In this document: positions 19,364-58,895 of the stretch, piece by piece
Position numbering within the stretch: position 1 is the stretch's first letter
Layout: each line of letters starts with the position of its first letter
Assembly (NCBI GenBank): GCA_903928075.1
Contig: CAIYPD010000070.1
Location: 1,730-65,729, forward strand
Direction of reading: 5' to 3'
From: Candidatus Firestoneibacteriota bacterium
Lineage (GTDB): Bacteria; Oederibacteriota; D2-FULL-39-29
DNA: 64,000 nucleotides
Notes under the pieces: model-generated
The model's input: only the letters and a program-made list of their open reading frames with translations
Databases searched by the model: none
What the model was told of the DNA's origin: nothing
Program-made: the position numbers and the translations under genes

Positions 19364-19410
19364 ATTAACAATATTCCTAAGTTTTTAAGACTTTAAAAAC
19401 TATTTTTACA

Positions 19411-38532: not shown

Positions 38533-41265
38533 TTATCGCGCCTTCTTATTTTCTTTACCCATCTTCGCTTCCACCTCGCCGGCAAGGGTGTAAAGTTTTT
38601 CTGTCCGTTCACGATAAGAGGTGTTTAATAGCCAGGCATGACCGGCAACCCCCGCCGTAAACCGCCAGGCGGCAACCCCCCAACCCCCGAAATTCATATT
38701 ATCAAGGCCTTTCCACATATATACCAGCCGCTCATCGAGAGCCTCCTGACAGCGCTTTGCGAGTTCAGGTGCAACTGACTTCAAGCTCCTGTTGACAAGA
38801 GCATTTTCTATATATATGCGGGCCTCGCAATCCTGGATACCCTCTTCCAAAGCCAGCAAACGGGTCATAGCCGCCGGGCCGTCCTCTCTTGGTTCAAGAA
38901 CATAACTGTGAAGTTGATGCAGATAACCCAAGACCTCGGAAAAGCGTTCATTTACCCAGCCCACCCGCCGACCGTCCTTCTTAACCGCCGGCCAATAATC
39001 CGCGCCAACCCGGCCTATGCCTCTATAGAAATCTCCGGTAATAGAAAACTCGCATAAATAATACCAGTAACTTATAGGACCGGTCTCATTAGCCATCCGG
39101 GGATAGTAAGCGTCTAATTGCGGACGGTTCCAACCGAATAAACTCGTCATAGCTCGCGGTTTTACATCTGCCTTTGAACCGGCAGTTCCCGCCGTACCCT
39201 GTCTGATGTTTTCAAGATCATCGGCAAAACGCTGGCTCCACCAGGTGGCAGTGTAGCCGACTTTAGCAATTCCGTTTAGATCTTTAAAGGCATTATGCCC
39301 CTGCTGGACCCAGGGCAGATCCGGCGCGAGCTCAAGGAAAAATTTTGTATCTTCTTTATTAGGAGTGGAATCCGTGAACATACCCAGCTGGAGTGTTTTT
39401 TCAAGTCCGCGTTCTTTAAGCCGGGCCCGGACTTTTGCCAGTAACTCCCGCCAGATAGCCTTACTCACAGGATTACTCAATTTCGGGATACTGCCGTCCT
39501 TTGTACTTTTATCGGCATTTACAAAAGTTACCAGAGGTGCGCCGCCCGTGGTTTTCTGGTTTTCTTCAAGCACCAGGCCAAAGCGCCGGCCAGTGGCGTC
39601 TTTCGTGTTCATATATACTTCCCAAACCTGCAGTACCACAAGTTTTGGCTTACCCAGATATTTTTCGGCCGTATCCAGATATTTATCCATAACAGAAAAA
39701 TCCCAATCATACTTTCCGTCGGCTTTTTTAATCCAGCGGATCATAGATTCCTCATTGCCAAGATTCGTATGCGCTATCGCCGGAATATAAAGACTGCGCG
39801 CACCTGTTGCGCTTATTAATTTAAACGAACGCTCGATTAGTTTAAAGTGCTTCTCGGACCAGAGCGGAACATTGTACTCCACCGCCAGAGAATCCGGCGA
39901 CTGGATAAGTTCTACCCAGGTTTTAAAATCCTGGACATCCGGCAGGGTCCAGGCAAAGACTTTGAGTTCCACAGGCACTTGAACAGACGCTTCCCCGGAA
40001 ACAGAAACGGTAACTGTGCCTTTATAAGTCCCGGGTTCAGAATTCTTTGGCACCTTGACGCGCACCCAAAGAGGAACAACAGCGCCGTTAACCCGGCTGC
40101 CGTCCTTTGACCTTACCGCTACAGGAAATTCCTTGAGCGGCTCCGGCAGCAGCATACCCAGGCAGCCCGCACCGTCTTTATAGGGCAGAAAATCGGGAGG
40201 AGCAAACTCGTCATTTGCATATAAATCCTCCTGCCCGCCGGGAATACCGTATAAAAACTGCACCTGCGATGCCGGAATAAGAACCTCGCCGGATTTAAGG
40301 TCGCCGGCCGTAACTTTTAGACCTTTAATGGGTTTATCACTCCCAAGGATAACTTTCCCGTAGAAAGCCCCGTTGCGCGGGCTGTTAATAATCAGCGGTT
40401 TTAGAGTTTCAGTCAGGTCGCCATAATCTACATCCACATCTCCCGCAAGGTTCTCAGCATTCCAGACTTGAATACCTTTGGGCCTTCCGGCGTTTGGCAC
40501 CAGACCGGTCAAATTCTTAGCGGACAATCTGACTTTACGGATTTCACAGGTATTCCAAATCAATGCGAACTCTTTGGCCAGGGTTGTTGTCTTTTTTTTC
40601 TCCAGAAGTTCGGGATAGGGTGCGCGAATAAGCTCGAGGGCCAGTACATTAACGCCTTTTTTTAAAAGCGTCCGCGGGACCAAAAGCTCAAACATCCGGG
40701 TGCGCAGCGCCGGCGCCACCGTACGGGGCACTTCCCCTTTGGCATCCACAAATGCTTCGAGAGAATAAGCTTCCGCCAGCAGTTGTTTTGAATCTTTGGT
40801 GGCCGGGATATTTTTTCTGCCAATTTCTTTACCGTTCAAATAAACAATAACGCCCCCGTAGTATTCAAGCATAAGAGAGAGGTCATTGACCGAAAAAAGA
40901 TTAGTCACTTCAAATTTGCCGCGCATGCAGAGCCGCGCCAGATATGGCGTTCTGGCAGACCGGCGCGCAGGGCCTCGCAGCCAGCCGCGGTCATCCATCT
41001 CCGGTTCTTTCCAGTTATCCGCCGGGGGCGGCGTCGTCCAATCCAGCCATTTAACATTCAATAGAAGCGGTCTGATTTTACCGCCGTTCTGCTCCAGCGC
41101 CGGGGCTTCAAGAGTATGATACATACGCCAGACTCCGGCTGTATCCAGCACAATACCGGTTTCCGGAACCGGCGCCGAAAAAAGAAGCTGCCCGCTGCCG
41201 GTCAGAATAAGGCAAAAATATATTACCAGAGCGTAAAACTTTTTTTTTGCTTTCATATTGCGCAC
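38533..41265 (-). CDS. Large secreted hypothetical protein (910 aa), probable carbohydrate-active enzyme with an N-terminal galactose-binding-like domain
   Basis: It has a signal peptide, a long GC-rich ORF and sits next to the GH10 xylanase. The family is not assigned. Confidence 0.55.
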   Translation of the reverse strand: MRNMKAKKKFYALVIYFCLILTGSGQLLFSAPVPETGIVLDTAGVWRMYHTLEAPALEQNGGKIRPLLLNVKWLDWTTPPPADNWKEPEMDDRGWLRGPARRSARTPYLARLCMRGKFEVTNLFSVNDLSLMLEYYGGVIVYLNGKEIGRKNIPATKDSKQLLAEAYSLEAFVDAKGEVPRTVAPALRTRMFELLVPRTLLKKGVNVLALELIRAPYPELLEKKKTTTLAKEFALIWNTCEIRKVRLSAKNLTGLVPNAGRPKGIQVWNAENLAGDVDVDYGDLTETLKPLIINSPRNGAFYGKVILGSDKPIKGLKVTAGDLKSGEVLIPASQVQFLYGIPGGQEDLYANDEFAPPDFLPYKDGAGCLGMLLPEPLKEFPVAVRSKDGSRVNGAVVPLWVRVKVPKNSEPGTYKGTVTVSVSGEASVQVPVELKVFAWTLPDVQDFKTWVELIQSPDSLAVEYNVPLWSEKHFKLIERSFKLISATGARSLYIPAIAHTNLGNEESMIRWIKKADGKYDWDFSVMDKYLDTAEKYLGKPKLVVLQVWEVYMNTKDATGRRFGLVLEENQKTTGGAPLVTFVNADKSTKDGSIPKLSNPVSKAIWRELLAKVRARLKERGLEKTLQLGMFTDSTPNKEDTKFFLELAPDLPWVQQGHNAFKDLNGIAKVGYTATWWSQRFADDLENIRQGTAGTAGSKADVKPRAMTSLFGWNRPQLDAYYPRMANETGPISYWYYLCEFSITGDFYRGIGRVGADYWPAVKKDGRRVGWVNERFSEVLGYLHQLHSYVLEPREDGPAAMTRLLALEEGIQDCEARIYIENALVNRSLKSVAPELAKRCQEALDERLVYMWKGLDNMNFGGWGVAAWRFTAGVAGHAWLLNTSYRERTEKLYTLAGEVEAKMGKENKKAR

Positions 41266-41330
41266 TCCTATTACTCAACTATAGTTATTTATTATAAGTT
41301 CCAGTTAAAATACCGGCTCCGGGTATTTTA

Positions 41331-43001
41331 TCAAAAGTCCGTGCTTATTGTGATATTTTTATTTTTTTCCGCAGAGGCCAGAGATACTTTTTTGGTAAAT
41401 ATTTTTCCGTTAGAGGTGGTGACCGTGACCAAATGCTCGCCAAAATAAGGACGGCAGGAGTACTTTCCTTTGTCATCCGTCTGCCCTTTGGCTTTTGTCC
41501 ACCACTCCTCATAGACCAGTTTCCTGTACATATTTGCGGCCGAAGTCGGGGTAAAGTCTTTTTTAAAGAGTGCGGATTTGGGCCGCCAGTGCGCGCCCTC
41601 CCAGAAACCCCACATAAGGATACCATTCACCCTGGGATAGGCAAAGCATATCCGGTAAAGAGTTTCCAGTCCTTCGGCTTTAACCCGTTCATTTCCGGAG
41701 TTGATGTCAAACTCGGTTATTTTTATGGGGAGATTAAATTTCGACAGAACCTCGAGGGATTTTGCCACCAGAAACGGATTTAGGGCACCATTAAAATGAC
41801 CCTGTATACCTATCCCGCCGACAGGCGCGCCCAGATCAATTAAATGCCGGATATGCGCCGCATATTGTTCTTCCAGAGTTTCGTTTTTCATTATGTCATA
41901 ATCGTTCACATAAAGGACCGTCTCAGGATCACTTTTTTGTACCGTTTGGAACATCTCCTTCCAGATTCCTTCGCCAAGCCGGTTTTTATAAAAACTACCG
42001 TGCATCATTTCATTATTCACATCATACTCGCTTATCCGGCCTTTATATCTTTCAGGGAGTTCTTTGGCGCGTTTTAATACCGCCTCTCTTAACTCCTCCT
42101 TATTAAGTTTCTTAATCCAGGGCTGGAGTACCTCTTCCACCTCCCAGAAGATACAATGCCCTCGCATACTTATGTTATTCTCCTCGCACCAGGCAAGTAT
42201 CTTATCGGCATCCCCGTAGGTAAATTGGCCTTTCTCTTTCTCTGTGCCGTACCATTTAAGAGCATTTTCATGAACGGCGCTGTTAAAATTCTCCTTCAGT
42301 ATTTTAAGAAATTTTTCGCGGGTGCTTTCGTCAAAAGTATTCACGCCCGAGGTAATGGCGGTCCCGAACCAGAATTCATGTCTTAACTGGTCAACGGCTA
42401 TACCGGCATTTTTAATTATTCCGCCGTCTTTGCCGAGCACCGTTATTTCCAGCCCGCCCTTTCTTATTTTTTCAGTTTGTTCTTTGAGCTTTTTCATCAA
42501 GAGCTCCTTCTTTACTTTAAGGTCCGGCTCCGCTTCTTCTTTAGGAACAATACGGGGAAGCAGCCCTGAGCCATTGTCTTCAATTTTCAGCCGTTCGATA
42601 TATAAATTCCGGTCTTCCTTTTTTTTCTCATCAAAGCCGTCATTGGTAAACTGAATTTTTATTTTACAAATCCCTTTCTCTATTTTAGCGGTAAACTGAA
42701 ATTCCTGCAGCCGGGAAGAAGCCACCGGCGAGGAAAACAGCACCGTCTCATTGCAGAGAACTTTCATTTCAGGCCAGATATCAAACGCCTTAGTGCCCCG
42801 CGCTATAACCGTAAATTTATATACGCCGTTTTCAGGAAAATCGAATACTTCGCCTATAAAGCCGTTCGTCCAGAGGTTCCACACCTCTTTAAAAGGATCG
42901 CCGGCGCTGTTATCCGACATATCAGCGGCTTTAACAACAACTTCAGCCGGGAATACGGAGCCGGACAGAGAAATAAGCAAAACTAATGGAATAACCAGCA
43001 T
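41331..43001 (-). CDS. Glycoside hydrolase family 10 endo-1,4-beta-xylanase with an N-terminal carbohydrate-binding module
   Basis: The GH10 motifs are present: ...VNDYDIM..., NEMMHGSF, IGIQGHF, and the catalytic nucleophile region IKITEFDI. Confidence 0.8.
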   Translation of the reverse strand: MLVIPLVLLISLSGSVFPAEVVVKAADMSDNSAGDPFKEVWNLWTNGFIGEVFDFPENGVYKFTVIARGTKAFDIWPEMKVLCNETVLFSSPVASSRLQEFQFTAKIEKGICKIKIQFTNDGFDEKKKEDRNLYIERLKIEDNGSGLLPRIVPKEEAEPDLKVKKELLMKKLKEQTEKIRKGGLEITVLGKDGGIIKNAGIAVDQLRHEFWFGTAITSGVNTFDESTREKFLKILKENFNSAVHENALKWYGTEKEKGQFTYGDADKILAWCEENNISMRGHCIFWEVEEVLQPWIKKLNKEELREAVLKRAKELPERYKGRISEYDVNNEMMHGSFYKNRLGEGIWKEMFQTVQKSDPETVLYVNDYDIMKNETLEEQYAAHIRHLIDLGAPVGGIGIQGHFNGALNPFLVAKSLEVLSKFNLPIKITEFDINSGNERVKAEGLETLYRICFAYPRVNGILMWGFWEGAHWRPKSALFKKDFTPTSAANMYRKLVYEEWWTKAKGQTDDKGKYSCRPYFGEHLVTVTTSNGKIFTKKVSLASAEKNKNITISTDF

Positions 43002-43023
43002 GTTTGCGCATTTAAGCCATTTT

Positions 43024-43359
43024 CTATTTATCAGACTTTACTCCTTTTTTTGGTTTTGGTTCAGGAAGTTCTTTATAGGTTATCCTTATCAAATTACTGA
43101 GCCATTCCCGGTCTTCTATTTTATCTTCAATAAGGAAGCTCAATTTCGCGCCAGGATAAGCCGGCGCCAGGACCGCATCTCCTATAAAAGCCTTTCCCCT
43201 TGAGGTGACTTTTACAAAAAGCCGGTTATCGCAGACCAGCGCAACCACTTTGCCTTGGCAATAAAGCGCGTACTCCCCGAACATCTTCCGGTAGGAAATA
43301 GTCCCTGTATTTTCAAGCTGGTCAACTATAAAATCCAGAAAACTTTTATCCGAGGCCAT
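43024..43359 (-). CDS. TfoX/Sxy N-terminal domain family protein
   Basis: Over 111 aa the pattern FLDFIVDQL...RKMFGEYALY..GKVVALVCDNRLFVK matches TfoX_N. Confidence 0.6.
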   Translation of the reverse strand: MASDKSFLDFIVDQLENTGTISYRKMFGEYALYCQGKVVALVCDNRLFVKVTSRGKAFIGDAVLAPAYPGAKLSFLIEDKIEDREWLSNLIRITYKELPEPKPKKGVKSDK

Positions 43360-43929
43360 TACTTTCTCCTTTTTTACGGCAGAAGCAGGAACAAACGGAA
43401 CTTCCGGTAGTGGTCTTGTTTGTTAACCGGACACTATGCTAACAAATGGAAGAAAGTATCTCAAGTTAAAAGGATAAAAGTTTCCACGATTCCTTCCTGA
43501 CGGCCCTTATGTGACTGCTATAGTTTCAATATCATAACGAATAAGTAATGATTATGCCGGTTTTTTTTTGCAGGCTTATTTATGTTTATTTTTTTGGCAC
43601 TGAAGGGAGACTCAAATCATTCTCGGCTTTTTGAAAAACAAGGCCTTTACCCTTCAGCTTCTTATAGCCTTTGGACAACTGCTAAAGCAAATTAAGATTA
43701 TTTGTATCTATGCCCGATGGGGACCTGTCCCCCTAAAGTGGTGGGGGAATAATGTGTGTTAATGGGAGACAAGATGGAGGGAATAACTTCTTGAAAAATA
43801 GCTGCATTAGTGATACATTTAACATAGAAGGATTTCTTGGGAAATTTCAAAAATGTCGGATCGTACATCCGTAGGGGGTTTTTTGTTTCTAAGGGAATTC
43901 TTTCAGTCAGGCTTTGAAAGGAAGAAGCT

Positions 43930-45774
43930 TTGGAAAGTTTCATAGTTGATTGGAGGCTATCTTTTGATGCGCTTTCGATCTTCTTCGGTTTCGTAATACT
44001 GCTGGTGGCAATTCCGTCATGGGTTTATTCAATAGGATACATGCAAGGCCTATACTCCCGCGGCAGGATTCGTTTTGCCAAAATTCTGTTTTTCTTTTTC
44101 ATTCTCTCGATGCTTCTGGTCGTTTTTTCCTCAAATGTACTTTTTTTCCTCATAGCCTGGGAACTGATGTCGTTGCTTTCCTACTTTTTGGTAACCCTCG
44201 ATTCGCACGAAGAAAAAGCATCCAGAGCAGGGCTTATCTATATCCTGATGACTCATGTTGGTACCACCTTCATGACAGCGGCCTTTCTTATTATATATTC
44301 TTACTCCGGGTCTTTCGACTTTATTGCCTTTAAAGAAACCTGCCTACTTCTTCCTTCAACCATAAAGACAGTTGTCTTTTTGTGTTTTGTTGTAGGGTTT
44401 GGGACTAAAGCCGGCCTTATTCCCTTTCATATCTGGCTTCCCTATGCGCATCCCGAAGCTCCGAGTCATATTTCTTCCGTTATGTCCGGTGCAATGATAA
44501 AGATAGGCGTCTACGGTTTTATCAGGTTTGTACTTTTTATTCTCGGGGTCTCTGAACTCTGGTGGGGAAATCTTATATTGGTTCTTGCTATCATCTCAAG
44601 TGTAGGCGGAATTCTTTATGCGCTTATGGAGAAAGATCTAAAAAAAATGCTTGCCTACAGCAGTATCGAAAATATCGGATTAATTATGCTCGGAATCGGC
44701 GGTTATATGGTGTTTATTAAAATGAACCAGCCTCTTCTGGCTGTTTTTTCCCTGGCAGCAGCGCTCTACCACACAGTCAATCATGCAATCTTTAAAACTC
44801 TTCTCTTTATGTGTTCGGGTGCTATTCTAAAAACCTGCGGGACAAAGAATATGGAAAAGCTGGGGGGCTTGATAAAATTAATGCCCGTAACCGCGTTTTG
44901 TTTTCTTATCGGTGCTCTTTCTATTTCTGCGATGCCGCCGCTAAACGGATTTATGAGCGAGTGGTTGATTCTTCAAACATTATTTTCCGGAGCACTTGCC
45001 GGCGCCACATTTCCAAAAATGAAAATATTTCTGGCTCTTCTGACTGGGCTTCTTGCCTTGACCGGGGGACTAGCGGCGGCCTGTTTTGTAAAAGCTTTCG
45101 GTATTTCTTTTCTCGCGGGGACAAGGTCAAAGAAAACAGAGACAGCAAATGACTCCGGTTGGACGATGAAAGCGCCTATGATTTTTTTAACCGGTCTTAT
45201 TTTTATCTTTGGTATATTTGCAGCCCCGGTTTTTAAAGTTCTTATTGACACGGTTTCGTCTGTTTCCGGTCTAAACAGCGGAGGCGCTGCGTTTACCTTC
45301 AATGTTATGTCCCTGGCGCCCCGGAATAATTCAACTATGAGCCTGAACAGCCTGCTTCTATTTGGTATTTTGGTTATAACAGAAGTAACAATATTTGCAG
45401 TGGTTAAAATAATCACAAAAAAAAGAACTGTTACCTGTGCCCATACCTGGGCTTGCGGATATTACAGGACAACGGAAAGAAATCAATATACCTCAACAGG
45501 TTTTTCCAAACCATTCCGGGTGGCCTTTAGTTTTATTCTTATGCCTTCCAGAAAGCTGGAAAAAATAAGAGATTCCCACTATCACGTAAAAGCTTTTAAA
45601 TACGAGGTGCATACAAAACAATTTTTAAACGAATATTTTTATAAACCGGTTATCAAGCGGCTTTTCCGGTTCGCAGAATGGTCGAGAAAACTTCAGCAGG
45701 GAAGTGTTCATATCTATATCGGGTATATCTTCCTTGCCATAGTATTTTTAATAGTCTTTCTTAAGAGGTTTTAA
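43930..45774 (+). CDS. NuoL/HyfB-like proton-pumping antiporter subunit of a group-4 hydrogenase-like complex
   Basis: It is a multi-TM Mrp/NuoL-family protein (WLPYAHPEAPSHISS...). It has a TTG start with an AGGAAG RBS. It is the first gene of the six-gene operon. Confidence 0.8.
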   Translation: MESFIVDWRLSFDALSIFFGFVILLVAIPSWVYSIGYMQGLYSRGRIRFAKILFFFFILSMLLVVFSSNVLFFLIAWELMSLLSYFLVTLDSHEEKASRAGLIYILMTHVGTTFMTAAFLIIYSYSGSFDFIAFKETCLLLPSTIKTVVFLCFVVGFGTKAGLIPFHIWLPYAHPEAPSHISSVMSGAMIKIGVYGFIRFVLFILGVSELWWGNLILVLAIISSVGGILYALMEKDLKKMLAYSSIENIGLIMLGIGGYMVFIKMNQPLLAVFSLAAALYHTVNHAIFKTLLFMCSGAILKTCGTKNMEKLGGLIKLMPVTAFCFLIGALSISAMPPLNGFMSEWLILQTLFSGALAGATFPKMKIFLALLTGLLALTGGLAAACFVKAFGISFLAGTRSKKTETANDSGWTMKAPMIFLTGLIFIFGIFAAPVFKVLIDTVSSVSGLNSGGAAFTFNVMSLAPRNNSTMSLNSLLLFGILVITEVTIFAVVKIITKKRTVTCAHTWACGYYRTTERNQYTSTGFSKPFRVAFSFILMPSRKLEKIRDSHYHVKAFKYEVHTKQFLNEYFYKPVIKRLFRFAEWSRKLQQGSVHIYIGYIFLAIVFLIVFLKRF

Positions 45775-46661
45775 TGAAAATAACAGTTATCATACTTCAA
45801 GCGGTTCTTTTGATAGCTGCCTCACCTTTCATAAGCGGTTTTATAAAGAAGTTGAAGAATCACATAAGAATGAGAAAGGGCGCGCCCTTGCTTCAGCCTT
45901 ACCATAATATAGTTAAATTATTTGGCAAGGATGAAACTATTTCGAAGGATTCTTCATATATTTTCAGGATAGCACCTTATGTTCTGATAACAACGGCCGT
46001 TGCCGCAGCCTTACTTTCTCCGTCATTTTTCCCGTCGTTCCAAATATCCGGAACCGGAGATATATTTATAATTATTTTTATTTTTGCGCTCGGACGTTTC
46101 TTTACGGCTCTGGCAGGGCTTGACACAGGCAGCACCTTCGGAGGGATGGGTTCTTCCAGAGAAATGTTCATCTCTGCGCTCGCCGAACCTGCATTTCTTG
46201 TTTCTGTGTTTGCCGCTTCGCTTGCTGCCGGGAATACCGGAATAAGCTCTCTTCTTCCGGGCGGAGTCTTTAAGATTTCCCTGGTTTGCAGCGGTCTGGC
46301 TTTCTACCTGGTGTTGCTTGCGGAGACCGCGAGAGTTCCGGTGGACAATCAAGAAACGCATCTTGAACTCACAATGATCCATGAAGCTATGATTCTGGAG
46401 TACTCCGGGAAATCGCTCGCACTTATTGAACTTGCCGGTCATATTAAACAATTAGTGCTGCTTTCTCTTCTGGTCTATATTTTTATTCCTGTTGGCAGCG
46501 GAACCGGCTTTTATATTATTAAAATTGTTGCAGTTGCGGCGGTAACCGCAATCATAGAGGTTGCTCTCGCCAAGATGAGATTATTCCGGGTGGTGGACTA
46601 TCTAATTTTTTCTTTTGTTCTTTCTCTGGCGGCAGTTACCGCTTTTATAATGGGAGTCTAA
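45774..46661 (+). CDS. NuoH/HycD/HyfC-like membrane subunit
   Basis: It is a 295-aa polytopic protein with the NuoH-like pattern. Confidence 0.75.
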   Translation: MKITVIILQAVLLIAASPFISGFIKKLKNHIRMRKGAPLLQPYHNIVKLFGKDETISKDSSYIFRIAPYVLITTAVAAALLSPSFFPSFQISGTGDIFIIIFIFALGRFFTALAGLDTGSTFGGMGSSREMFISALAEPAFLVSVFAASLAAGNTGISSLLPGGVFKISLVCSGLAFYLVLLAETARVPVDNQETHLELTMIHEAMILEYSGKSLALIELAGHIKQLVLLSLLVYIFIPVGSGTGFYIIKIVAVAAVTAIIEVALAKMRLFRVVDYLIFSFVLSLAAVTAFIMGV

Positions 46662-47300
46662 ATGCATATAGAGCTGATGCAATATGGCGTACTTCTAATG
46701 GCTTTTGCTATGGTGGCCGCAAAAAGATTTTCGGCACTTGTTACTTCGTTTACCATACAGTCCTTTTTACTTTTTATTTTGACTTTAAGTGAGGCGATAA
46801 AAACCGGAAGCACACAGCTCTATATATTAGCCGTGTTAATCTTTGCGATAAAAGTAATCGGGATACCGGTATTTTTGGGAAGAATAACAAAAAAAATAAA
46901 GGTGCCGGACGAGATGGGGCTTTATGTTAATACAACACTTTCTATTATTATTGCCGCGCTCCTGTCCGGTATTTCCTACTATTTCATCAGAAACTTCCTT
47001 CCCTCAATGGAAAAAGAAGCAGGCATAGCTCTTATAATAGCTCTTTCCGTTACTTTGATAGGATTGTTCATAATGATTTTTCGAATCAAAGCCCTGGCTC
47101 AGGTTGTCGGGCTTCTAATAATGGAAAACGGAATATTTCTGGCAGGTGCTTCTATAACCGGCGGAATTCCGTTTTTTGTGGAGATTGCGGTATCCTTTGA
47201 CGTTTTTATTGCCGTAATGATACTCGGTGTTTTTGTTTACAGGATTAACAGTTTATTTACCCACATTGATGTGGACAAGTTAAACGAGCTGAAAGGTTGA
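46662..47300 (+). CDS. HyfE-like small membrane subunit (NuoK-related)
   Basis: At 212 aa its size and hydrophobic pattern match hydrogenase-4 component E. Confidence 0.6.
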   Translation: MHIELMQYGVLLMAFAMVAAKRFSALVTSFTIQSFLLFILTLSEAIKTGSTQLYILAVLIFAIKVIGIPVFLGRITKKIKVPDEMGLYVNTTLSIIIAALLSGISYYFIRNFLPSMEKEAGIALIIALSVTLIGLFIMIFRIKALAQVVGLLIMENGIFLAGASITGGIPFFVEIAVSFDVFIAVMILGVFVYRINSLFTHIDVDKLNELKG

Positions 47301-47301
47301 T

Positions 47302-48738
47302 ATGGAAATAGTTATTGTTTTCATAGCTCTGCTTCTTTCGGGTGGAGTTTCCTTCTTTATAAAAAATGGAAAAAAAGGCGGGATGATAACTCTGGGCGGA
47401 CAGATAGTTGCCGGGATATTTTCCTTATTGCTTTGCGCGCGTACATCCGGCGGTACTGCTCTTGCGGTTTTAAATTTCTTTTATGTGGACGGACTGACTG
47501 CATTTTTCCTGTTTTTGATCTCCATATCCTCGATGGCAACGGCGTTTTATTCTCTCTGGTATTTTAAAGATGATGAAAATACCGGATTTTATAACTTTCT
47601 CTTCAATATCTTTGTTTTTTCTATGTATTTTGTGGTAACAGTAAACAACCTCGGAATGATGTGGATGGCGGTGGAGATAACGACTCTTTCTTCGGCTTTT
47701 CTTGTCGGGTACAGGAACAACAAAACAGCTGTGGAAGCAGCCTGGAAGTATGTAATCATCTGTTCCGTCGGCATAACGCTCGCTCTTTTCGGGATAATTT
47801 TATTTTACTACACCGGTTTGACCCAAGCTGGTATAAAAAGTTTAAACTGGACCCAGCTTAATGCGGCCGGAAATTTCCTCGATCCTATGGTTGTAAAAGC
47901 CGCTCTAATATTTATTATAGTCGGTTTTGGTACAAAGGCCGGTCTTGCTCCGATGCATAACTGGCTGCCGGACGCCCACAGCCAGGCGCCGACACCGATA
48001 AGCGCGCTTTTATCGGGAGCTCTTCTTAAAGTCTCTCTCTATGCTATCATAAGATTTATGATAATTTCCTCCAAGAGTGTCGGTTTTTCCTTCTGCGGAA
48101 ATATTCTCGGGCTTTTCGGGATCATCTCTCTGGCTGTTGCCGCCTTCTTTATGCTGGTGCAAAAAGATATCAAGCGCCTGCTTGCCTACTCGAGCGTCGA
48201 ACATATGGGGATAATATCTATGGGCTTTTACTTTGGCGGCAAGACGGGTGTATTCGGTGCCTTGTTCCATACCCTAAATCATGCGGCGGCCAAATCCTTG
48301 ATGTTCTTCTCCTCCGGGGTTATTATAAAAAAATACGGGACTAACAATATGCATCAGATTAAAGGCGCTCTCGAGGTCCTTCCTTTTGCCGCCTCAGCCG
48401 CTTTTCTTGGAATGTTTGCCGTTGCAGGGCTTCCGCCGTTCTCAATATTTATGAGTGAATTCACCGTGCTTTATGCCGGATTTAAAGGCGGATTCTATTT
48501 CAGTTCCTCTGCGGTCCTGGTGTTTCTGGCAATAATCTTTGGAGCTCTGATATACCATTTTAGCGGGATGATTTACGGAAAGAAACCGTCAGAAATGTTT
48601 CGCATTAAGGAGTCTTTGGGGATAACGGTACTTTTTGGCGTTATGCTTATTGTGCTTTTAGCCCTGGGCCTGCACATCCCGGAATTTGTAAATACCCTTA
48701 TAGATTCTGCGTCAAATGTAATATTTGGAGTGGAATAA
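47302..48738 (+). CDS. NuoN/M-like / HyfF-like antiporter subunit
   Basis: It has the WLPDAHSQAPTPISALL motif of NuoM/N-family subunits. Confidence 0.8.
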   Translation: MEIVIVFIALLLSGGVSFFIKNGKKGGMITLGGQIVAGIFSLLLCARTSGGTALAVLNFFYVDGLTAFFLFLISISSMATAFYSLWYFKDDENTGFYNFLFNIFVFSMYFVVTVNNLGMMWMAVEITTLSSAFLVGYRNNKTAVEAAWKYVIICSVGITLALFGIILFYYTGLTQAGIKSLNWTQLNAAGNFLDPMVVKAALIFIIVGFGTKAGLAPMHNWLPDAHSQAPTPISALLSGALLKVSLYAIIRFMIISSKSVGFSFCGNILGLFGIISLAVAAFFMLVQKDIKRLLAYSSVEHMGIISMGFYFGGKTGVFGALFHTLNHAAAKSLMFFSSGVIIKKYGTNNMHQIKGALEVLPFAASAAFLGMFAVAGLPPFSIFMSEFTVLYAGFKGGFYFSSSAVLVFLAIIFGALIYHFSGMIYGKKPSEMFRIKESLGITVLFGVMLIVLLALGLHIPEFVNTLIDSASNVIFGVE

Positions 48739-48739
48739 T

Positions 48740-50320
48740 ATGAAATACCTGGAATTCAAAATAGCAGTTCTGGAAAGAACAGGCCTGGATGAAAGAGCGT
48801 TTCGTGAATCGGGAAGCGAAATATACATTGCCGCCAATCTTGAAAATTTTCACGGTATCTGTCTTCTTCTTCACAGTATACTTTCCTCCCCGGTAATGCT
48901 TTATTTTGCCGAAGATAATGTAAAAACCAGCGGTGTTTACACTCTCCGTTGCGGTTTTCTCGGGAAAAAAATACAAAGATGGGTTTTTGTGGTAGTTGAT
49001 ATCCCAAAGGATAATTTAAATTTTCCGGCAATATCCAAGGACATTGTTTCCGCGCAGTTATTCGAGCGGGAAATAAAAGAGATGTTCGGATTAATCCCGG
49101 CAGGAAGCCCCGATGTCCGGAGGCTTCGTCTTCATGATGAAGTCTGGCCGGATGGATATTTTCCGTTGAGAAAAGAATTCGTCAAACCCGAAAAGACAAA
49201 TAATACCGGAAAATATTATGTTTTTGACAGAATAGAAGGGGAAGGGGTTTTTGAGGTCCCCGTCGGACCGGTTCATGCCGGAATAATTGGACCCGGACAT
49301 TTCAGATTTTCGGTTGCCGGTGAGCCAATTATTAATCTTGAGCTCAGGCTCGGATTTGCGCACCGGGGTGCAGAAAAACTCTTTGAAGGTAAATCTGCCA
49401 AAGAAGCTCAAATATTTTCCGAATGTATTTCCGGGGATGCGGCTTTTGCTCATAGCCTTGCTTTTTCTCTTGCGGTCGAGCAGGCTGCGGGGATTGATGT
49501 AAAAGAAAATGTAAAAATAAATAGGGCTATAGGTTTGGAGCTTGAAAGAATCTATAATCATATTAACGATATTGGCGGAATGGCTATAGATGTGGCTTTC
49601 TCTTATTCTTCCACTCTGGCTTCAATTGTAAAAGAAAATATTTTAAGGCTTAACGAAAAACTTTCAAAACACAGATATTTAAAAGGAAGCAACGGTGTCG
49701 GACAGTGCGCACTGATCAAAGATAAAGAGAGCCGGGTTTGTCTGCTTGAAGTATTGTCCGGAGCAAAAACAGACATAGATCTATTGAAAAATATTCTATT
49801 TTCCAGCGTTTCCTTTATGGATAAGGTAGATACAACAGGCACATTGCATAGAAAAACGGCGGAAGATTTTGGGGTTACCGGTCTTGCCGGCCGCGCCTCT
49901 GGGCTAGAACTCGACCTTCGTAGAGTTTTTCCCGGTATATATGAAAAAACTTCTTTTGAAATTATAAGAGGAGATAAAGGCGATGTTCTTTCCCGCTTAA
50001 ATGTACGATTTAACGAGCTCGCCGTGGCTCTTCGGGTCATAACTGAGCTTTCCGGACAGATAAATTTTAGCGGAAAAGAAGATTCTCCCGAGGCAATAAT
50101 AATATCCGGTACCGGACTCGGAGCAGTGGAAGGCTGGCGCGGCCCGATAATTTACTGGGTTAAGATCGGCAAAGAAGGGAAAATAGAAAGATGCAAAATT
50201 GTAGATGCTTCTTTTAATAACTGGCAGGCTCTTTCCTGCTGTGTACACGGAAATATCATTCCTGATTTTCCGGTTTGCAACAAGAGTTTTGACTTTTCTT
50301 ACTCCGGAGGGGACCTGTGA
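48740..50320 (+). CDS. Fused NuoC–NuoD-like 'large subunit' homologous to HycE/HyfG, apparently lacking the NiFe-ligating cysteines
   Basis: A NuoC-like N-domain is followed by a NuoD/[NiFe]-large-subunit-like domain. The region corresponding to the N-terminal CxxC reads SECISGDAAFAHS. The C-terminal DPCxxC position reads FDFSYSGGDL. The start is the ATG at 48740, with a GGAG RBS. Confidence 0.75.
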   Translation: MKYLEFKIAVLERTGLDERAFRESGSEIYIAANLENFHGICLLLHSILSSPVMLYFAEDNVKTSGVYTLRCGFLGKKIQRWVFVVVDIPKDNLNFPAISKDIVSAQLFEREIKEMFGLIPAGSPDVRRLRLHDEVWPDGYFPLRKEFVKPEKTNNTGKYYVFDRIEGEGVFEVPVGPVHAGIIGPGHFRFSVAGEPIINLELRLGFAHRGAEKLFEGKSAKEAQIFSECISGDAAFAHSLAFSLAVEQAAGIDVKENVKINRAIGLELERIYNHINDIGGMAIDVAFSYSSTLASIVKENILRLNEKLSKHRYLKGSNGVGQCALIKDKESRVCLLEVLSGAKTDIDLLKNILFSSVSFMDKVDTTGTLHRKTAEDFGVTGLAGRASGLELDLRRVFPGIYEKTSFEIIRGDKGDVLSRLNVRFNELAVALRVITELSGQINFSGKEDSPEAIIISGTGLGAVEGWRGPIIYWVKIGKEGKIERCKIVDASFNNWQALSCCVHGNIIPDFPVCNKSFDFSYSGGDL

Positions 50321-50823
50321 ACAATATTATAAATATTGCGAACGCGAGGATACAAAAAGGTATAGTTACCGAAAACCTCGACCTTATTGGGTCTAAACTT
50401 AAAACAGAGATTCAAAAGAAATTTGCAAGATCACTTTTTCTCAGAGAAGTTGATACCGGTTCTTGCGGCGCCTGTGAGTCAGAGATAATCTCCGCCATCA
50501 ATCCAGTTTACGATCTGCAAAGATTCGGCGTAGATTTTGTCGCTTCACCCAGGCACGCTGATGCGCTTTTAGTGACCGGCCCGGTCTCGCTCAATATGAG
50601 CCTTGCGCTTAAAAGGACCTACGAAGCAATGCCTTCTCCAAAATTTGTTATTACCGCCGGAGACTGCGCTCTTGATGGAGGTCCGTTCAAAGGCTCTTAC
50701 TATATAGAAGGCGGTGTCAGCAAGATAATCCCTGTAGTTTTTCATATTCCCGGCTGTCCCCCTAAACCCATAGACCTGGTCTTAGCCCTTCTTCTTGCCG
50801 TAAAAAATCTAAAAAGAAGCTAA
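50317..50823 (+). CDS. NuoB/HycG-like small subunit with intact [4Fe-4S] ligands
   Basis: Cys ligands are conserved: SCGACESE, GDCALDGG and PGCPP. The GTG start overlaps the upstream stop. Confidence 0.8.
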   Translation: MNNIINIANARIQKGIVTENLDLIGSKLKTEIQKKFARSLFLREVDTGSCGACESEIISAINPVYDLQRFGVDFVASPRHADALLVTGPVSLNMSLALKRTYEAMPSPKFVITAGDCALDGGPFKGSYYIEGGVSKIIPVVFHIPGCPPKPIDLVLALLLAVKNLKRS

Positions 50824-50987
50824 CATAATATTAGCAGATTAATGAAGAACTCTTTTTAAGACTTTTTCAGCTACAATTCTGATAATTTTAGATTATCCCT
50901 GAGTGTCAGTCTCTGCGTTATTATATGCTGCATTATACTGCATACTGCGTACTGTAAAAATGCCGGGCTATATGTTATAATTTTATT

Positions 50988-51866
50988 GTGGATGCCCTCA
51001 ATATTGTTAAGTACATATTCTTAAGCTTGCGGCCGAAGCAGTGGCCGAAGAACCTTTTGATTTTCGCGGCGCTGGTTTTTTCAAAAAACCTGAGAAACGG
51101 ATTTTACGATACCGAGACGATTCTTGGCTTCATCATCTTTTGTATAATTTCCGGAAGTATTTATATCATTAACGACCTTGTAGATAAGAACAAGGATAAA
51201 CTTAATCCAAAGAAAGCCAAAAGGCCTATAGCTTCAGGCAAACTTCCGGTGCGCTATGCCATCCCGGCCTTCCTATTTTTTTCAATTTCCGGAATTGTAG
51301 CAGCCTTTAAACTTGGAAGTAATTTCGGCCTGGTAGTCATTATTTATTTTGCTATTCAGATTCTCTATACTTTTGTATTAAAAAATATCGTAATCCTGGA
51401 TATCTTTGTTATCGCTATAGGATTTGTCCTCAGAGTTGTTGCAGGTGCGGCGATAATAGCCGTATCGATATCCAACTGGCTTCTGGTCTGCACCCTCTTT
51501 CTTTCTCTCTTCCTGGCGCTGGGTAAACGCAGGTTTGAACTCATCAAGCTGGATAAGGCGACCGGACACAGAACGGCGCTCAAAGAATATAATGTCCAAC
51601 TTCTTGACCAAATGATAACGGTAGTCACCTCGGCCTCGATTGTGGCTTATTCCATCTACACCCTCTCCCCCGAGACCATAGATAAATTTAAAACAAAGAA
51701 CCTTATGTACACCATCCCCTTTGTGCTCTACGGGATTTTCAGATACCTTTACCTTATTTATCAAAAGGAAATCGGCGGCGCACCGGAAGAAATATTGATT
51801 TCAGATATTCCGCTTATAATTAATATTCTGCTTTACGGCTTTACGGTATGGTTAATCATCTATTGA
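50988..51866 (+). CDS. UbiA-family prenyltransferase, decaprenyl-phosphate phosphoribosyltransferase-like
   Basis: It has the YIINDLVDKNKD (NDxxD) motif and multiple TMs. Confidence 0.65.
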   Translation: MDALNIVKYIFLSLRPKQWPKNLLIFAALVFSKNLRNGFYDTETILGFIIFCIISGSIYIINDLVDKNKDKLNPKKAKRPIASGKLPVRYAIPAFLFFSISGIVAAFKLGSNFGLVVIIYFAIQILYTFVLKNIVILDIFVIAIGFVLRVVAGAAIIAVSISNWLLVCTLFLSLFLALGKRRFELIKLDKATGHRTALKEYNVQLLDQMITVVTSASIVAYSIYTLSPETIDKFKTKNLMYTIPFVLYGIFRYLYLIYQKEIGGAPEEILISDIPLIINILLYGFTVWLIIY

Positions 51867-51874
51867 TATTACTA

Positions 51875-51970
51875 GTTCGTAAGGTCTAGAAGCAAAGCTT
51901 TTCTCGTTAGGAATTATATATAGATGCCAACTATCGTTGACATAGTGAGATAAAGTCTAAAATCTCGAAG
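51875..51970 (-). repeat. Module-B copy of the dispersed repeat, minus orientation
   Basis: The sequence runs ...AGCAAAGCTTTTCTCGTTAGGAATTATATATAGATGCCAACTATCGTTGACATAGTGAGATAAAG. It lies 9 bp after the UbiA stop. Confidence 0.75.
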
Positions 51971-55639: not shown

Positions 55640-55741
55640 ATTCTTTGCTCCGCAAAAAATAGTCTCAAGGTCCATAAAGTCTGTAAGGTATAAAAATCTT
55701 TGAGATTATTTTTAATAATTGACTTAAAATACTACATTAGT

Positions 55742-55848
55742 GTAAGACCTTACGGACTTTACAGACTTTATCTCGCTATGTCAAAGTATTTTGACATCCA
55801 TATATACTTCCTCTCGAGAAAAGCTTTGCTTATAAACCTTACGAACCT
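55742..55848 (+). repeat. Module-B copy of the dispersed repeat (variant palindrome ATGTCAAAGTATTTTGACAT)
   Basis: The sequence runs GTAAGACCTTACGGACTTTACAGACTTTATCTCGCTATGTCAAAG...CTTATAAACCTTACGAACC. It ends 8 bp before the MBL hydrolase stop. Confidence 0.75.
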
Positions 55849-55855
55849 TAAAAAC

Positions 55856-58767: not shown

Positions 58768-58895
58768 TTATCTTGCTATGTCAACAACAGTTGACATCAA
58801 TATATCCTTCCTCTCAAGAAAAGCTTTTACTTATCTTGCTATGTCAACGACTGTTGACATTTCTATATATCTTTCCACTCAAGAAAAACTATTGT
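58768..58895 (+). repeat. Two tandem partial module-B cores of the dispersed repeat
   Basis: Two cores are present: TTATCTTGCTATGTCAACAACAGTTGACATCAATATATCCTTCCTCTCAAGAAAAGC and TTATCTTGCTATGTCAACGACTGTTGACATTTCTATATATC... They lie 34 bp from the heptosyltransferase stop. Confidence 0.75.

What the first reader, a model, noticed from the sequence alone, without database searches (positions are those of the whole stretch)
43930..50823. Group-4 hydrogenase-like (Hyf/Hyc-type) operon whose 'large subunit' has lost all four NiFe cysteines: candidate Ehr-type complex
The six co-directional, tightly coupled genes encode NuoL/HyfB-like, NuoH/HyfC-like, HyfE-like and NuoN/HyfF-like subunits, a fused NuoC–D large subunit and a NuoB-like small subunit. 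This matches the hyfB-C-E-F-G-I gene order. In real [NiFe] large subunits the N-terminal RxCGxCxxxH motif and the C-terminal DPCxxCxxH/R motif ligate the metal centre. Here the corresponding segments read SECISGDAAFAHS and SFDFSYSGGDL, with C replaced by S/A and S/G. The small subunit keeps its [4Fe-4S] Cys (CGAC…GDC…PGCPP). No NuoI/HyfH-like 2x[4Fe-4S] ferredoxin subunit is present. There is also no HycB/FdhF, and no hyp maturation genes are visible in the window. This combination is the signature of 'energy-converting hydrogenase-related' (Ehr) complexes, whose substrate and physiological role are unknown. If confirmed, this is a respiratory-type ion-pumping module of unassigned function rather than a hydrogenase.
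Basis: partly seen in the sequence, partly recalled or inferred. Interest (0 to 1): 0.78.

Follow-up and report, generated by a model that had tools for sequence, protein, structure and literature searches.

The report
Hydrogenase-like membrane complex without nickel site
This is a six-gene membrane complex descended from a nickel-iron hydrogenase that has lost both its metal active site and its electron-input module; it belongs to the already known 'Ehr' class, which is widespread but has no known job.

Summary
Six translationally coupled genes (43930-50823, + strand) encode HyfB/NuoL-like, NuoH-like, HyfE-like and HyfF/NuoN-like subunits, a fused NuoC-NuoD large subunit and a NuoB-like small subunit. 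Aligned to E. coli HycE (7Z0S), all four [NiFe] cysteines are replaced (S, A, S, G). There is no CxxC anywhere in the protein and no C-terminal extension. The small subunit keeps its four [4Fe-4S] cysteines.

The interpretation as an Ehr complex is supported, and Ehr is a known class (Geobacter, Nitrospira, Sulfobacillus, M. tuberculosis, ammonia-oxidising archaea). The same cassette in the same order occurs in at least 592 species genomes. No redox-partner gene recurs among its neighbours.

New detail:
- The nearest cysteine-retaining relatives carry a 2x[4Fe-4S] ferredoxin domain on or beside the small subunit. Here that domain has been cleanly excised, leaving only its flanks.
- The window's subclade also lost the hydrogenase proton-relay Glu and the L1 Arg.

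Only one orphan Fe-S cluster therefore remains. My best guess is a single-cluster, redox-coupled ion pump fed by a directly docking carrier. A redox-gated, Mrp-like antiporter is the main rival. This is a new member of a known kind, of moderate-to-low interest.

The parts
43930..45774 (+). EhrA-type antiporter-like subunit (HyfB/NuoL/HycC-like, 614 aa, TTG start). It lacks about 65 N-terminal residues relative to HyfB, NuoL and the Nitrospira-type homologues.
   Evidence: PF00361 7e-58; NF005086 1e-181, matching from model position 72. HycC 7z0s_C 5e-64; conserved E78, K160, H167, K191, H282/H286, K289 and E344; 595-635 aa in this subclade against about 675 aa in the other.
45774..46661 (+). 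EhrB-type NuoH/HyfC/HycD-like membrane subunit (295 aa).
   Evidence: PF00146 2e-36. FGGMGSSRE and AETxRxPxDNxxTHLELTMxHEAMxLEYSG are at least 90% conserved in 62 homologues.
46662..47300 (+). EhrC-type HyfE-like small membrane subunit (212 aa; NuoK/J-related).
   Evidence: NF008556 4e-27, below that model's cutoff; no PDB sequence match; a homologue in L087 hits PF00420 weakly. ENG, VE and D are conserved.
47302..48738 (+). EhrD-type antiporter-like subunit (HyfF/NuoN-like, 478 aa).
   Evidence: PF00361 4e-55; NF005044 2e-134; conserved E125, K212, H219, H322/H327, K331 and E386.
48740..50320 (+). EhrL: fused NuoC-NuoD 'large subunit' (526 aa) without NiFe ligands.
   Evidence: HycE 3e-59, MbhL 4e-29, Nqo4 6e-24. 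AF2 model pTM 0.84; best fold match 7z0s_E, TM 0.81.
49418..49456 (+). Former L1 motif, SECISGDAAFAHS. Cys1 is replaced by S231 and Cys2 by A234, and the L1 Arg by C229. G232 sits where complex I has Tyr87.
50285..50317 (+). Former L2 motif, SFDFSYSGGDL. Cys3 is replaced by S520 and Cys4 by G523. The protein ends 3 residues later, so there is no protease-cleaved extension.
   Evidence: S in 76 of 76 and G in 74 of 76 homologues.
49268..49312 (+). Beta1-beta2 loop, PVHAGIIGPGHFRFS. It is nearly invariant in the family. The hydrogenase proton-relay Glu is replaced by G184, and the complex I His38 position holds Ile.
50317..50823 (+). EhrS: NuoB-like small subunit (168 aa, GTG start overlapping the EhrL stop). 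It carries the four [4Fe-4S] Cys (C50, C53, C117, C147) and an N-terminal stub of a deleted NuoI-like ferredoxin domain (junction T18|E19, nt 50368-50373).
   Evidence: the four Cys are at least 90% conserved in 64 homologues; alignment to Fer4-fused small subunits of Cys-retaining relatives.
43791..43819 (+). Tentative promoter (TTGAAA-17-TACATT, TG-extended) in the 570-nt upstream gap. The block TTCTTGAAAAAT is shared with the Firestonebacteria locus L002.
   Evidence: This is a consensus match plus a two-sequence alignment, so the evidence is weak.

Best explanation
Identity (about 0.95). This is a canonical six-subunit Ehr complex (EhrA-B-C-D-L-S). It is a cytoplasm-facing NuoB + NuoC-D cap sitting on a NuoH-like, HyfE-like and two antiporter-like membrane subunits. 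It descends from a Hyf-like group-4 [NiFe] hydrogenase and is no longer a hydrogenase.

Mechanism (inferred, about 0.45). The only redox cofactor left is the proximal [4Fe-4S] cluster of the small subunit. The ancestral 2x[4Fe-4S] ferredoxin-like input domain has been excised. I therefore propose that a soluble one-electron carrier (ferredoxin- or flavodoxin-type) docks directly on the surface that domain used to cover. Reduction and re-oxidation of the lone cluster would change protonation or conformation in the remodelled, strictly conserved NuoD pocket. That pocket comprises the beta1-beta2 loop PVGPVHAGIIGPGHFRF, the segment E-[C/R]-V-S-G-D, and the C-terminus NKSFxLSYxGNDL. The change would be passed through the conserved NuoH-like loops and the HyfE-like subunit to the two antiporter-like subunits, which move H+ or Na+. 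In reverse, an ion gradient would drive an uphill electron transfer. The second substrate is unknown. It is not H+/H2. It is probably not a quinone bound the complex-I way, because Gly and Ile replace Tyr87 and His38.
For: Shown here:
- Subunit set and gene order.
- All four NiFe Cys replaced, with the replacements themselves invariant: S in 76 of 76 and G in 74 of 76 homologues.
- Small-subunit Cys at least 90% conserved across 64 bacterial and archaeal homologues.
- The Lys/Glu/His proton-path residues of both antiporter-like subunits, and the NuoH loop motifs, are conserved.
- The cassette order A-H-E-A-L-S is found in 38 complete loci, and in the right order wherever a contig is cut. At least 592 species genomes carry a relative.
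- The nearest 4-Cys relatives (anammox, Effusibacillus, Phosphitispora) have the same order plus a Fer4 domain or gene at the small subunit. The window's small subunit aligns to both flanks of that domain: QKGIVT | ENLDL.
- Two Cys-less relatives (L043, L073) keep a Fer4 region with ligands for only one cluster, which looks like an intermediate state.

Inferred:
- The input-wire cysteines decayed or were deleted, while the proximal-cluster cysteines and about 700 aa of peripheral arm stayed under strong constraint. This argues that the cluster is still used and that the arm is still the energy-input part.
- In Geobacter, Ehr subunits were more abundant on formate than in the H2-containing conditions (PMC7894505). 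This fits a link to electron-donor metabolism.
Against: - No donor or acceptor gene is conserved within +-10 kb in 85 loci. After the five cassette families (61-83 loci), the next most frequent are a histidine kinase (15 loci) and a sigma54 response regulator (12 loci), nearly all of them in Nitrospira-type loci.
- An isolated cluster with both ends of the old electron path removed can equally be read as a structural or sensory relic.
- The family occurs in organisms with very different redox metabolism: fermenters, nitrite oxidisers, ANME archaea.
- The AF2 monomer model is unreliable exactly at the pocket (pLDDT below 50 for residues 162-208 and 502-526). Neither exposure of the cluster nor the pocket geometry could be checked.
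- In N. moscoviensis the genes are not induced by H2 (PMC12342949).
- No experiment on any Ehr complex was found in the searchable literature.
Confidence: 0.45

Rival explanations
1. Redox-independent, or merely redox-gated, secondary cation/proton antiporter. After losing both the catalytic site and the ferredoxin wire, the complex works like an Mrp antiporter. The NuoB/NuoCD cap serves only as an assembly or gating lid. The remaining cluster is structural, or acts as a redox/O2/NO sensor.
For: - The NiFe ligands and the 2x[4Fe-4S] domain were both lost, while the nearest 4-Cys relatives keep both.
- No conserved redox partner lies nearby.
- The family is found in metabolically unrelated lineages.
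- All antiporter-type charged residues are intact.
- The first membrane subunit matches MrpA/MrpD chains at 1e-33 to 2e-42.
- Omnitrophota relatives put the operon behind an attenuator-type leader, as is common for ion transporters. This point is weak and neutral.
Against: - Mrp antiporters work without any peripheral arm. Keeping about 700 aa of NuoB/C/D, with an invariant pocket and four invariant Cys across bacteria and archaea, is hard to explain for a passive lid.
- The Fer4 cysteines decayed where the domain survives, whereas the NuoB cysteines never did.
Confidence: 0.27
2. FDH-Ehr. The complex is the membrane module of a formate-oxidising respiratory assembly. A formate dehydrogenase (FdhA with NuoE/F-like subunits), encoded elsewhere, docks on it. 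This was proposed for Margulisbacteria and Saganbacteria.
For: The hypothesis is set out in PMC6349859. Saganbacteria and Margulisbacteria homologues are 50-56% identical to the window's large subunit. Geobacter Ehr subunits rise on formate (PMC7894505).
Against: - No fdh, NuoE or NuoF gene is in the 64-kb window.
- None recurs among neighbours in 85 loci.
- Nothing resembling the HycB/HycF-type electron wire that links FdhF to the E. coli FHL core is present; the one ferredoxin domain was deleted.
- Whole-genome co-occurrence could not be tested.
Confidence: 0.1
3. Decaying remnant of a hydrogenase operon under relaxed selection, as suggested for Geobacter KN400 in PMC13194489.
For: The catalytic ligands and the ferredoxin domain are lost. 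There is no known phenotype.
Against: - All six reading frames are intact and translationally coupled.
- Order and content are kept across several bacterial phyla and two archaeal groups at 40-73% identity.
- The replaced positions are themselves invariant, as are the coupling residues.
Confidence: 0.03
4. Still a hydrogenase, with a metal site built from other residues (for example C229, C485, C513, H238).
For: This subclade has gained Cys at the L1-Arg position (C229, 101 of 120 homologues) and keeps C513 and C485.
Against: - There is no CxxC, no proton-relay Glu (G184), no C-terminal processing extension, and no hyp genes in the window.
- C229 is absent from the Nitrospira-type half of the family, which has R and I at those two positions.
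- Whether these Cys lie close together in space could not be tested, because the model is unreliable there.
Confidence: 0.02

Closest known systems
Ehr (energy-converting / Ech hydrogenase-related) complexes: G. sulfurreducens GSU0739-45 (EhrA, B, C, D, L, S), Nitrospira, Sulfobacillus, D. ruminis Desru_3260-65, M. tuberculosis Rv0082-87, some ammonia-oxidising archaea
   Same: Same subunit types (NuoL-like, NuoH-like, HyfE-like, second antiporter-like, large, small). Six-gene size. Large subunit without RxCGxCxxxH / DPCxxCxxH. Function unknown (PMC7894505, PMC3569383, PMC4378227, PMC12342949). Nitrospira homologues were recovered directly, at 40-43% identity.
   Different: The window belongs to a separate subclade (Firestonebacteria, Omnitrophota, Elusimicrobia, Saganbacteria, Margulisbacteria). 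That subclade also lost the proton-relay Glu (now Gly) and mostly the L1 Arg (now Cys in most members), carries Cys at position 513 where the Nitrospira-type half has Ile, and has a HyfB-like subunit about 65 residues shorter at the N-terminus. I could not read Coppi 2005 or Marreiros 2013, so I cannot say whether these details are already described.
Cys-retaining relatives with the same gene order (anammox Kuenenia/Jettenia-type, Effusibacillus, Phosphitispora, Desulfitobacteriaceae; named HycE or hydrogenase large subunit by their sources)
   Same: A-H-E-A-L-(Fer4)-S order. Fused NuoC-D large subunit of about 530 aa, 36% identical in the one compared directly (P0143). HyfE-like subunit.
   Different: They keep E, R, CxxC and CxxC ('ERCCHICC'), and a 2x[4Fe-4S] domain fused to or adjacent to the small subunit. 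The window has neither.
E. coli hydrogenase-4 (HyfABCDEFGHI) and formate hydrogenlyase Hyc (PDB 7Z0S)
   Same: These are the best solved-structure matches: HycE 3e-59 with TM 0.81, and HycC 5e-64. The hyfB-C-E-F-G-I order is shared.
   Different: No HyfA/HycB, HyfD or HyfH/HycF. No NiFe ligands and no C-terminal extension. Unlike HycC, the TM7 Lys is present in the HyfB-like subunit.
Pyrococcus MBS/Mbx (PDB 6U8Y), a group-4 descendant that is not a hydrogenase
   Same: A complex-I-like respiratory machine. From my own knowledge of the published work: its NuoD-like subunit no longer binds NiFe, and chemistry is proposed at or near the proximal cluster.
   Different: Much weaker similarity (MbsL 8e-14). 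From my own knowledge: MBS has 13 subunits, including a NuoI-like subunit and an Mrp-type module.
Respiratory complex I core (NuoB, NuoCD, NuoH, NuoL/M/N)
   Same: Fold and modular layout. The NuoCD fusion resembles E. coli and Aquifex (TM about 0.77). The C-terminus ends at the same place as NuoD.
   Different: No NuoI, NuoE/F/G or NuoA. The cluster motif is CxxC, not the tandem CC. Gly and Ile replace the quinone ligands Tyr87 and His38.
Mrp Na+/H+ antiporter (PDB 7QRU, 6Z16, 7D3U)
   Same: Antiporter-like subunits with the same charged-residue pattern.
   Different: Mrp has no NuoB/C/D/H homologues and no Fe-S cluster.

Membership tests
Ehr (hydrogenase-related) complex | Subunits homologous to group-4 [NiFe] hydrogenase / complex I core: NuoB-, NuoD-, NuoH-like, plus at least one NuoL/Mrp-type antiporter-like subunit. 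| tested here: met
Ehr (hydrogenase-related) complex | Large subunit lacks the L1 (RxCGxCxxxH) and L2 (DPCxxCxxH/R) cysteine ligands. | tested here: met
   the replacements are S, A, S, G, and the protein has no CxxC.
Ehr (hydrogenase-related) complex | Small subunit keeps the proximal [4Fe-4S] ligands. | tested here: met
Ehr (hydrogenase-related) complex | Groups with sequences already called Ehr rather than with hydrogenases or NuoD. | tested here: met
   Nitrospira Ehr homologues recovered with family-specific peptide patterns; in a rough NJ tree of 128 representatives, the window sits inside the Cys-less group. There is no bootstrap support and no curated HydDB reference set.
Group 4a [NiFe] hydrogenase (Hyf/Hyc) | Four Cys ligands of the NiFe centre. 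| tested here: not met
Group 4a [NiFe] hydrogenase (Hyf/Hyc) | Proton-relay Glu in the N-terminal GPxHxxxxEP loop. | tested here: not met
   Gly at that position.
Group 4a [NiFe] hydrogenase (Hyf/Hyc) | 2x[4Fe-4S] subunit (HyfH/HycF) and further ferredoxin-like subunits (HyfA/HycB). | tested here: not met
Group 4a [NiFe] hydrogenase (Hyf/Hyc) | Hyp maturation genes and an endopeptidase in the genome; C-terminal extension on the large subunit. | tested here: inconclusive
   No hyp genes in the window and no extension. The rest of the genome is not available.
Respiratory complex I (Nuo) | Quinone-ligating Tyr87 and His38 (T. thermophilus Nqo4 numbering) in NuoD. | tested here: not met
   alignment: Gly and Ile at those positions.
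Respiratory complex I (Nuo) | NuoI, NuoA/J/K and an NADH module (NuoEFG) or equivalent. | tested here: not met
   Only a HyfE-like NuoK/J relative is present.
Mrp-type antiporter | MrpA-G subunit set without a redox module. | tested here: not met
   NuoB/CD/H homologues and an Fe-S site are present. Only the antiporter-like subunits are shared.
FDH-Ehr / formate hydrogenlyase-like assembly | Formate dehydrogenase catalytic subunit genetically or physically linked to the complex. | tested here: inconclusive
   Absent from the window and from +-10 kb in 85 loci. Genome-wide co-occurrence and physical association were not testable.

The most novel reading that the evidence does not exclude
The Firestonebacteria/Omnitrophota-type Ehr may be the most reduced complex-I-type machine known. 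It has six subunits and one Fe-S cluster, with both the catalytic metal and the electron wire removed. It might run without through-going electron transfer, either as a redox-gated ion translocator or using a substrate bound at a newly built pocket (C229/C513/D233/K515). In Omnitrophota it would be controlled by a previously undescribed attenuator/riboswitch-like leader whose ligand would reveal the physiological role.
Probability: 0.25. Interest if true: 0.7.

Novelty: new member of a known kind. Interest (0 to 1): 0.35.

Why it matters
Ehr complexes are among the most widespread complex-I relatives and still have no assigned function. They occur in about half of Nitrospirales genomes, and in Geobacter, M. 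tuberculosis, ammonia-oxidising archaea, and here in at least 592 species genomes.

This window adds one more uncultured host, so it does not make the question testable by itself. Three comparative points do narrow the hypotheses:
- The loss of the ferredoxin domain accompanies the loss of the NiFe site: the three Cys-retaining loci examined keep it, and nearly all Cys-less small subunits examined lack it.
- The proximal cluster and the pocket stay under strict constraint.
- No partner gene is linked.

The operon-specific leader in Omnitrophota offers an experimental handle, through ligand screening, that does not need a cultured organism.

Tried and rejected
- Riboswitch upstream of the operon in the window. 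Rfam found nothing in the whole window at gathering thresholds, and nothing in 43300-44000 at E<=1.
- Split N-terminus of the HyfB-like gene. No upstream small ORF with membrane helices exists. The short N-terminus is a subclade trait.
- Conserved partner genes. Clustering all ORFs from 85 loci (+-10 kb) gave only the cassette families. A PAS histidine kinase and an NtrC-type regulator recur almost only in Nitrospira-type loci and say nothing about the substrate.
- The adjacent UbiA-family gene (50988-51866) as a quinone link. It scores as decaprenyl-phosphate phosphoribosyltransferase-type. Outside near-identical contigs, it does not follow the cassette in the Firestonebacteria, Omnitrophota or Saganbacteria loci, nor in the closer relatives with 70-73% identical large subunits. 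I treat the adjacency as coincidental.
- Structure of the pocket. The AF2 monomer is confident overall (pTM 0.84) but has pLDDT below 50 at residues 162-208 and 502-526, so no inference on geometry was drawn. The fold search only repeated the sequence result.
- Reading the founding papers. Coppi 2005 and Marreiros 2013 are not held in the library.
- Leader comparison with the closest relatives. P0003 has no DNA on file and the P0002 contig is cut. Only a two-sequence comparison with L002 was possible.
- Taxonomic assignment of the window. I ran no further search on it.

Full report
**1. What is in the sequence.**

Between 43930 and 50823 on the + strand lie six ORFs separated by -4 to +1 nt. 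Each is preceded by a purine-rich ribosome-binding-like stretch. Profile searches give the following.

| Gene | Coordinates | Best matches |
|---|---|---|
| 1 | 43930-45774 | Proton_antipo_M; hydrogenase-4 subunit B, 1e-181 |
| 2 | 45774-46661 | NADHdh / NuoH family, 2e-36 |
| 3 | 46662-47300 | HyfE-like, 4e-27, below the curated cutoff |
| 4 | 47302-48738 | hydrogenase-4 subunit F, 2e-134 |
| 5 | 48740-50320 | Complex1_30kDa + Complex1_49kDa + N-terminal part of NiFeSe_Hases (a NuoC-NuoD fusion) |
| 6 | 50317-50823 | Oxidored_q6 (NuoB) |

**2. The ligand positions.**

The best solved relative of gene 5 is E. coli HycE (7z0s_E, 3e-59). Next come Pyrococcus MbhL (4e-29) and Thermus Nqo4 (6e-24). 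The alignment shows these correspondences:

- HycE R-v-C-G-i-C-g-f-a-H lies over C-i-S-G-d-A-a-f-a-H.
- HycE D-p-C-y-s-C lies over D-f-S-y-s-G.
- The HycE loop GPLHVTSDEPGHF lies over GPVHAGIIGPGHF.

All four metal-binding cysteines are therefore gone, and so is the Glu that relays protons in hydrogenases. The protein stops three residues after the last ligand position, so there is nothing for a maturation protease to cut. It contains no CxxC at all, which excludes a shifted motif.

Against Nqo4, the positions of the quinone ligands Tyr87 and His38 hold Gly and Ile. The site is therefore not a complex-I quinone site either.

The small subunit has C50, C53, C117 and C147, in the hydrogenase-type CxxC...C...CP arrangement.

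No CxxCxxCxxxC motif exists in any frame of the 64-kb window. A Pfam scan of 45 ORFs found no hyp, fdh, NuoI or NuoEF gene. The neighbours are glycoside hydrolases, a TfoX-like gene, a UbiA-family transferase, uvrB, xerD-like and LPS genes.

**3. How widespread and how constrained.**

The large subunit has an identical copy in public assemblies. It has relatives at 65-73% identity, of which the named ones are Ca. Firestonebacteria, and hundreds at about 55% in Omnitrophota and Saganbacteria.

At about 50-56% identity these are Omnitrophota, Elusimicrobia, Saganbacteria and Margulisbacteria. At about 40% they are many Nitrospira (including N. defluvii), Ca. Methanoperedens, Methanomassiliicoccales, Rokubacteria, Acetothermia and Acidobacteria.

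An exhaustive search of 1.84 billion cluster representatives gave 619 clusters at E<=1e-30. Of the 128 nearest full-length ones, about 100 lack the cysteines and about 21 keep at least three of the four.

In 85 loci the order antiporter-NuoH-HyfE-antiporter-large-small is the rule. It is complete in 38 loci, and truncated only by contig ends in most of the others.

Conservation is strong:

- Third and fourth ligand positions: Ser in 76 of 76 and Gly in 74 of 76.
- The C-terminus NKSFxLSYxGNDL, the segment E-x-V-S-G-D and the loop PVGPxHAGII..GHFRF are essentially invariant.
- The four small-subunit cysteines are at least 90% conserved.
- So are the NuoH loop motifs and the Glu/Lys/His residues of both antiporter-like subunits.

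This rules out a decaying relic.

**4. What the comparison adds.**

(a) The ferredoxin domain was excised. The nearest relatives that keep the four cysteines are anammox bacteria, Effusibacillus and Phosphitispora. They have the same gene order, but their small subunit carries an N-terminal 2x[4Fe-4S] ferredoxin domain, either fused (237-267 aa) or as a separate 120-aa gene. The window's 168-aa small subunit aligns to both flanks of that domain, QKGIVT and ENLDL, with the domain itself cleanly missing. 'No NuoI' is thus an internal deletion of a NuoI-like domain. Two Cys-less relatives (Fraserbacteria L043, Acetothermia L073) keep the region but have ligands for only one cluster, which looks like an intermediate state.

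(b) The family splits in two.

| Feature | Nitrospira-type half | Window's half |
|---|---|---|
| Proton-relay position | Glu kept | Gly |
| L1 Arg position | Arg kept | mostly Cys |
| Position 513 | Ile | Cys |
| HyfB-like subunit | about 675 aa | about 65 residues shorter at the N-terminus |

(c) No other gene family recurs near the cassette. After the five cassette families (61-83 loci), the next most frequent are a PAS histidine kinase (15 loci) and an NtrC-type regulator (12 loci), nearly all of them in Nitrospira-type loci.

**5. How it most likely works.**

Shown:
- The complex cannot be a [NiFe] hydrogenase.
- It keeps one Fe-S cluster.
- It keeps the whole membrane coupling and ion-path apparatus.

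Inferred: the input-wire cysteines decayed or were deleted, while the proximal cluster and about 700 residues of peripheral arm remained under strict constraint. I therefore think the cluster is still used. A soluble one-electron carrier would dock where the ferredoxin domain used to sit. Redox changes of the lone cluster would be coupled, through the conserved NuoD pocket and NuoH loops, to H+ or Na+ movement, or the reverse. I put this at about 0.45. The second substrate is unknown.

The main rival, at about 0.27, is that electron transfer was abandoned altogether. The machine would then be an Mrp-like secondary antiporter whose cap is a lid or a redox sensor. The simultaneous loss of both ends of the electron path, the lack of any linked partner and the very mixed host physiology speak for it. 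The cost of keeping an invariant 700-residue arm speaks against it.

The published FDH-Ehr idea (PMC6349859) is not supported by gene linkage here, but it cannot be excluded without whole genomes.

**6. Comparison with what is known.**

The composition equals the Ehr clusters described for:
- Geobacter sulfurreducens (EhrA, B, C, D, L, S; PMC7894505);
- Desulfotomaculum ruminis, whose EhrL keeps the Cys (PMC3569383);
- Sulfobacillus (PMC4378227);
- Nitrospira, where about half of the genomes carry it, its function is unknown, and it is not induced by H2 (PMC12342949, PMC10284858);
- M. tuberculosis Rv0081-87 (PMC6728331);
- some ammonia-oxidising archaea (PMC10432482).

No functional or structural study of an Ehr complex turned up in the searchable library up to 2026. 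The finding is a new member of a known kind.

**7. Side finding in relatives, not in the window.**

In Omnitrophota-type loci the cassette is preceded by a conserved leader:
- a sigma70-like promoter;
- an invariant box of about 25 nt, GUUCCGAGUUUNAAGGUGGGUCUGGA;
- an intrinsic terminator whose base, GAGAAACCUUU, is invariant while its upper stem covaries (7 pairs with compensatory changes);
- then the ribosome-binding site.

An exact-pattern scan of metagenome contigs found 76 more copies. Of the 75 with a detectable downstream ORF, 68 sit directly before the HyfB-like gene. One sits before a DMT_6 (DUF486) membrane protein that also occurs near the cassette in four genome loci. Two are chance hits in a phage-like contig. 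No Rfam family matches. The window lacks the box. With the Firestonebacteria locus it shares only a promoter-like block and a U-rich stretch.

**8. Limits.**

- Only the window was searched, not the genome.
- The tree is a rough neighbour-joining tree without support values or a curated reference set.
- The monomer structure model is unreliable at the pocket.
- The two founding Ehr papers could not be read.

Noticed in passing
window 3938-4155, 8236-8458, 11999-12124, 19246-19367, 51875-51969, 55731-55852, 58768-58890: A dispersed intergenic repeat of 60-218 nt, mostly 81-95% identical over the longer shared stretches, in both orientations. Its core is TTATCTCGCTATGTCAACGGTAGTTGACATCTATATATCCTTCCTATCGAGAAAAGCTTT, which contains the palindrome ATGTCAAC-N4-GTTGACAT and a TTGACA hexamer. 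All but one copy sit just upstream of a gene start, in a consistent orientation (for example before uvrB). This suggests a promoter- or operator-carrying repeat, or a MITE-like element. None lies upstream of the ehr operon.
   Followed up: partly
window 28651-28693 and 50848-50890: A 43-nt inverted pair, 93% complementary. The second arm lies 25 nt after the stop codon of the small-subunit gene, in the gap before the UbiA-like gene.
   Followed up: no
L003 5078-5203; L009, L016, L017, L019, L022, L038, L039; L088-L163: An operon-specific leader upstream of the Ehr cassette in Omnitrophota-type relatives: promoter, invariant ~25-nt box GUUCCGAGUUUNAAGGUGGGUCUGGA, covarying intrinsic terminator with invariant base GAGAAACCUUU, then RBS. 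There are 8 genome copies and 76 metagenome pattern matches; of the 75 with a detectable downstream ORF, 68 have the HyfB-like gene directly downstream. It has no Rfam match and is absent from the window.
   Followed up: partly
L126 (metagenome contig Ga0335071_10036012) and genome loci such as L008: One copy of the same leader precedes a 117-aa DMT_6 (DUF486) membrane protein. Homologues of this protein lie near the Ehr cassette in four genome loci, so it may be a second member of the same regulon.
   Followed up: partly
L043 and L073 (Fraserbacteria, Acetothermia), small-subunit genes: Cys-less Ehr clusters whose 274-aa small subunit still has the ferredoxin-like region but with ligands for only one [4Fe-4S]: one CP plus one CxxCxxC. 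This is an apparent intermediate between the two-cluster hydrogenase relatives and the domain-deleted form in the window.
   Followed up: partly
window 43930-45774 versus relatives: The HyfB-like subunit of the window's subclade starts about 65 residues later than HyfB, NuoL or MrpA and than the Nitrospira-type homologues (595-635 aa against about 675 aa). Its first residues match position 60-80 of those chains rather than their N-terminus, so the first N-terminal membrane segment is missing. No separate small ORF supplies it.
   Followed up: yes
L003 18643-21578 (Omnitrophota, GCA_030650425.1): About 7 kb downstream of the Ehr cassette, the same genome has an Ech-type cluster: Fer4, NADHdh, Oxidored_q6, Complex1_30kDa, and a large subunit with an unmarked NiFeSe_Hases hit. 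Ehr can therefore coexist with what looks like a true group-4 hydrogenase. I did not check the ligand cysteines of that large subunit, which is cut by the end of the locus.
   Followed up: no
L085 1-3478 (anammox-type contig): A DabA gene with a Proton_antipo_M partner (a DAB-type CO2-uptake pair) lies directly upstream of the Cys-retaining hydrogenase cluster.
   Followed up: no
window 50988-51866: A UbiA-family gene scores above the NCBIfam cutoff for decaprenyl-phosphate phosphoribosyltransferase (263.7 bits against 234). It follows the ehr operon in near-identical contigs but not in more distant relatives.
   Followed up: partly
window 38533-43359 (- strand): Directly upstream and divergent from the operon lie a GH123-like protein (910 aa), a GH10 xylanase with a CBM60 module, and a TfoX_N protein. 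This points to a polysaccharide-degrading, diderm host, since lpxK, a lipid A acyltransferase and a heptosyltransferase lie at 58929-61950.
   Followed up: no
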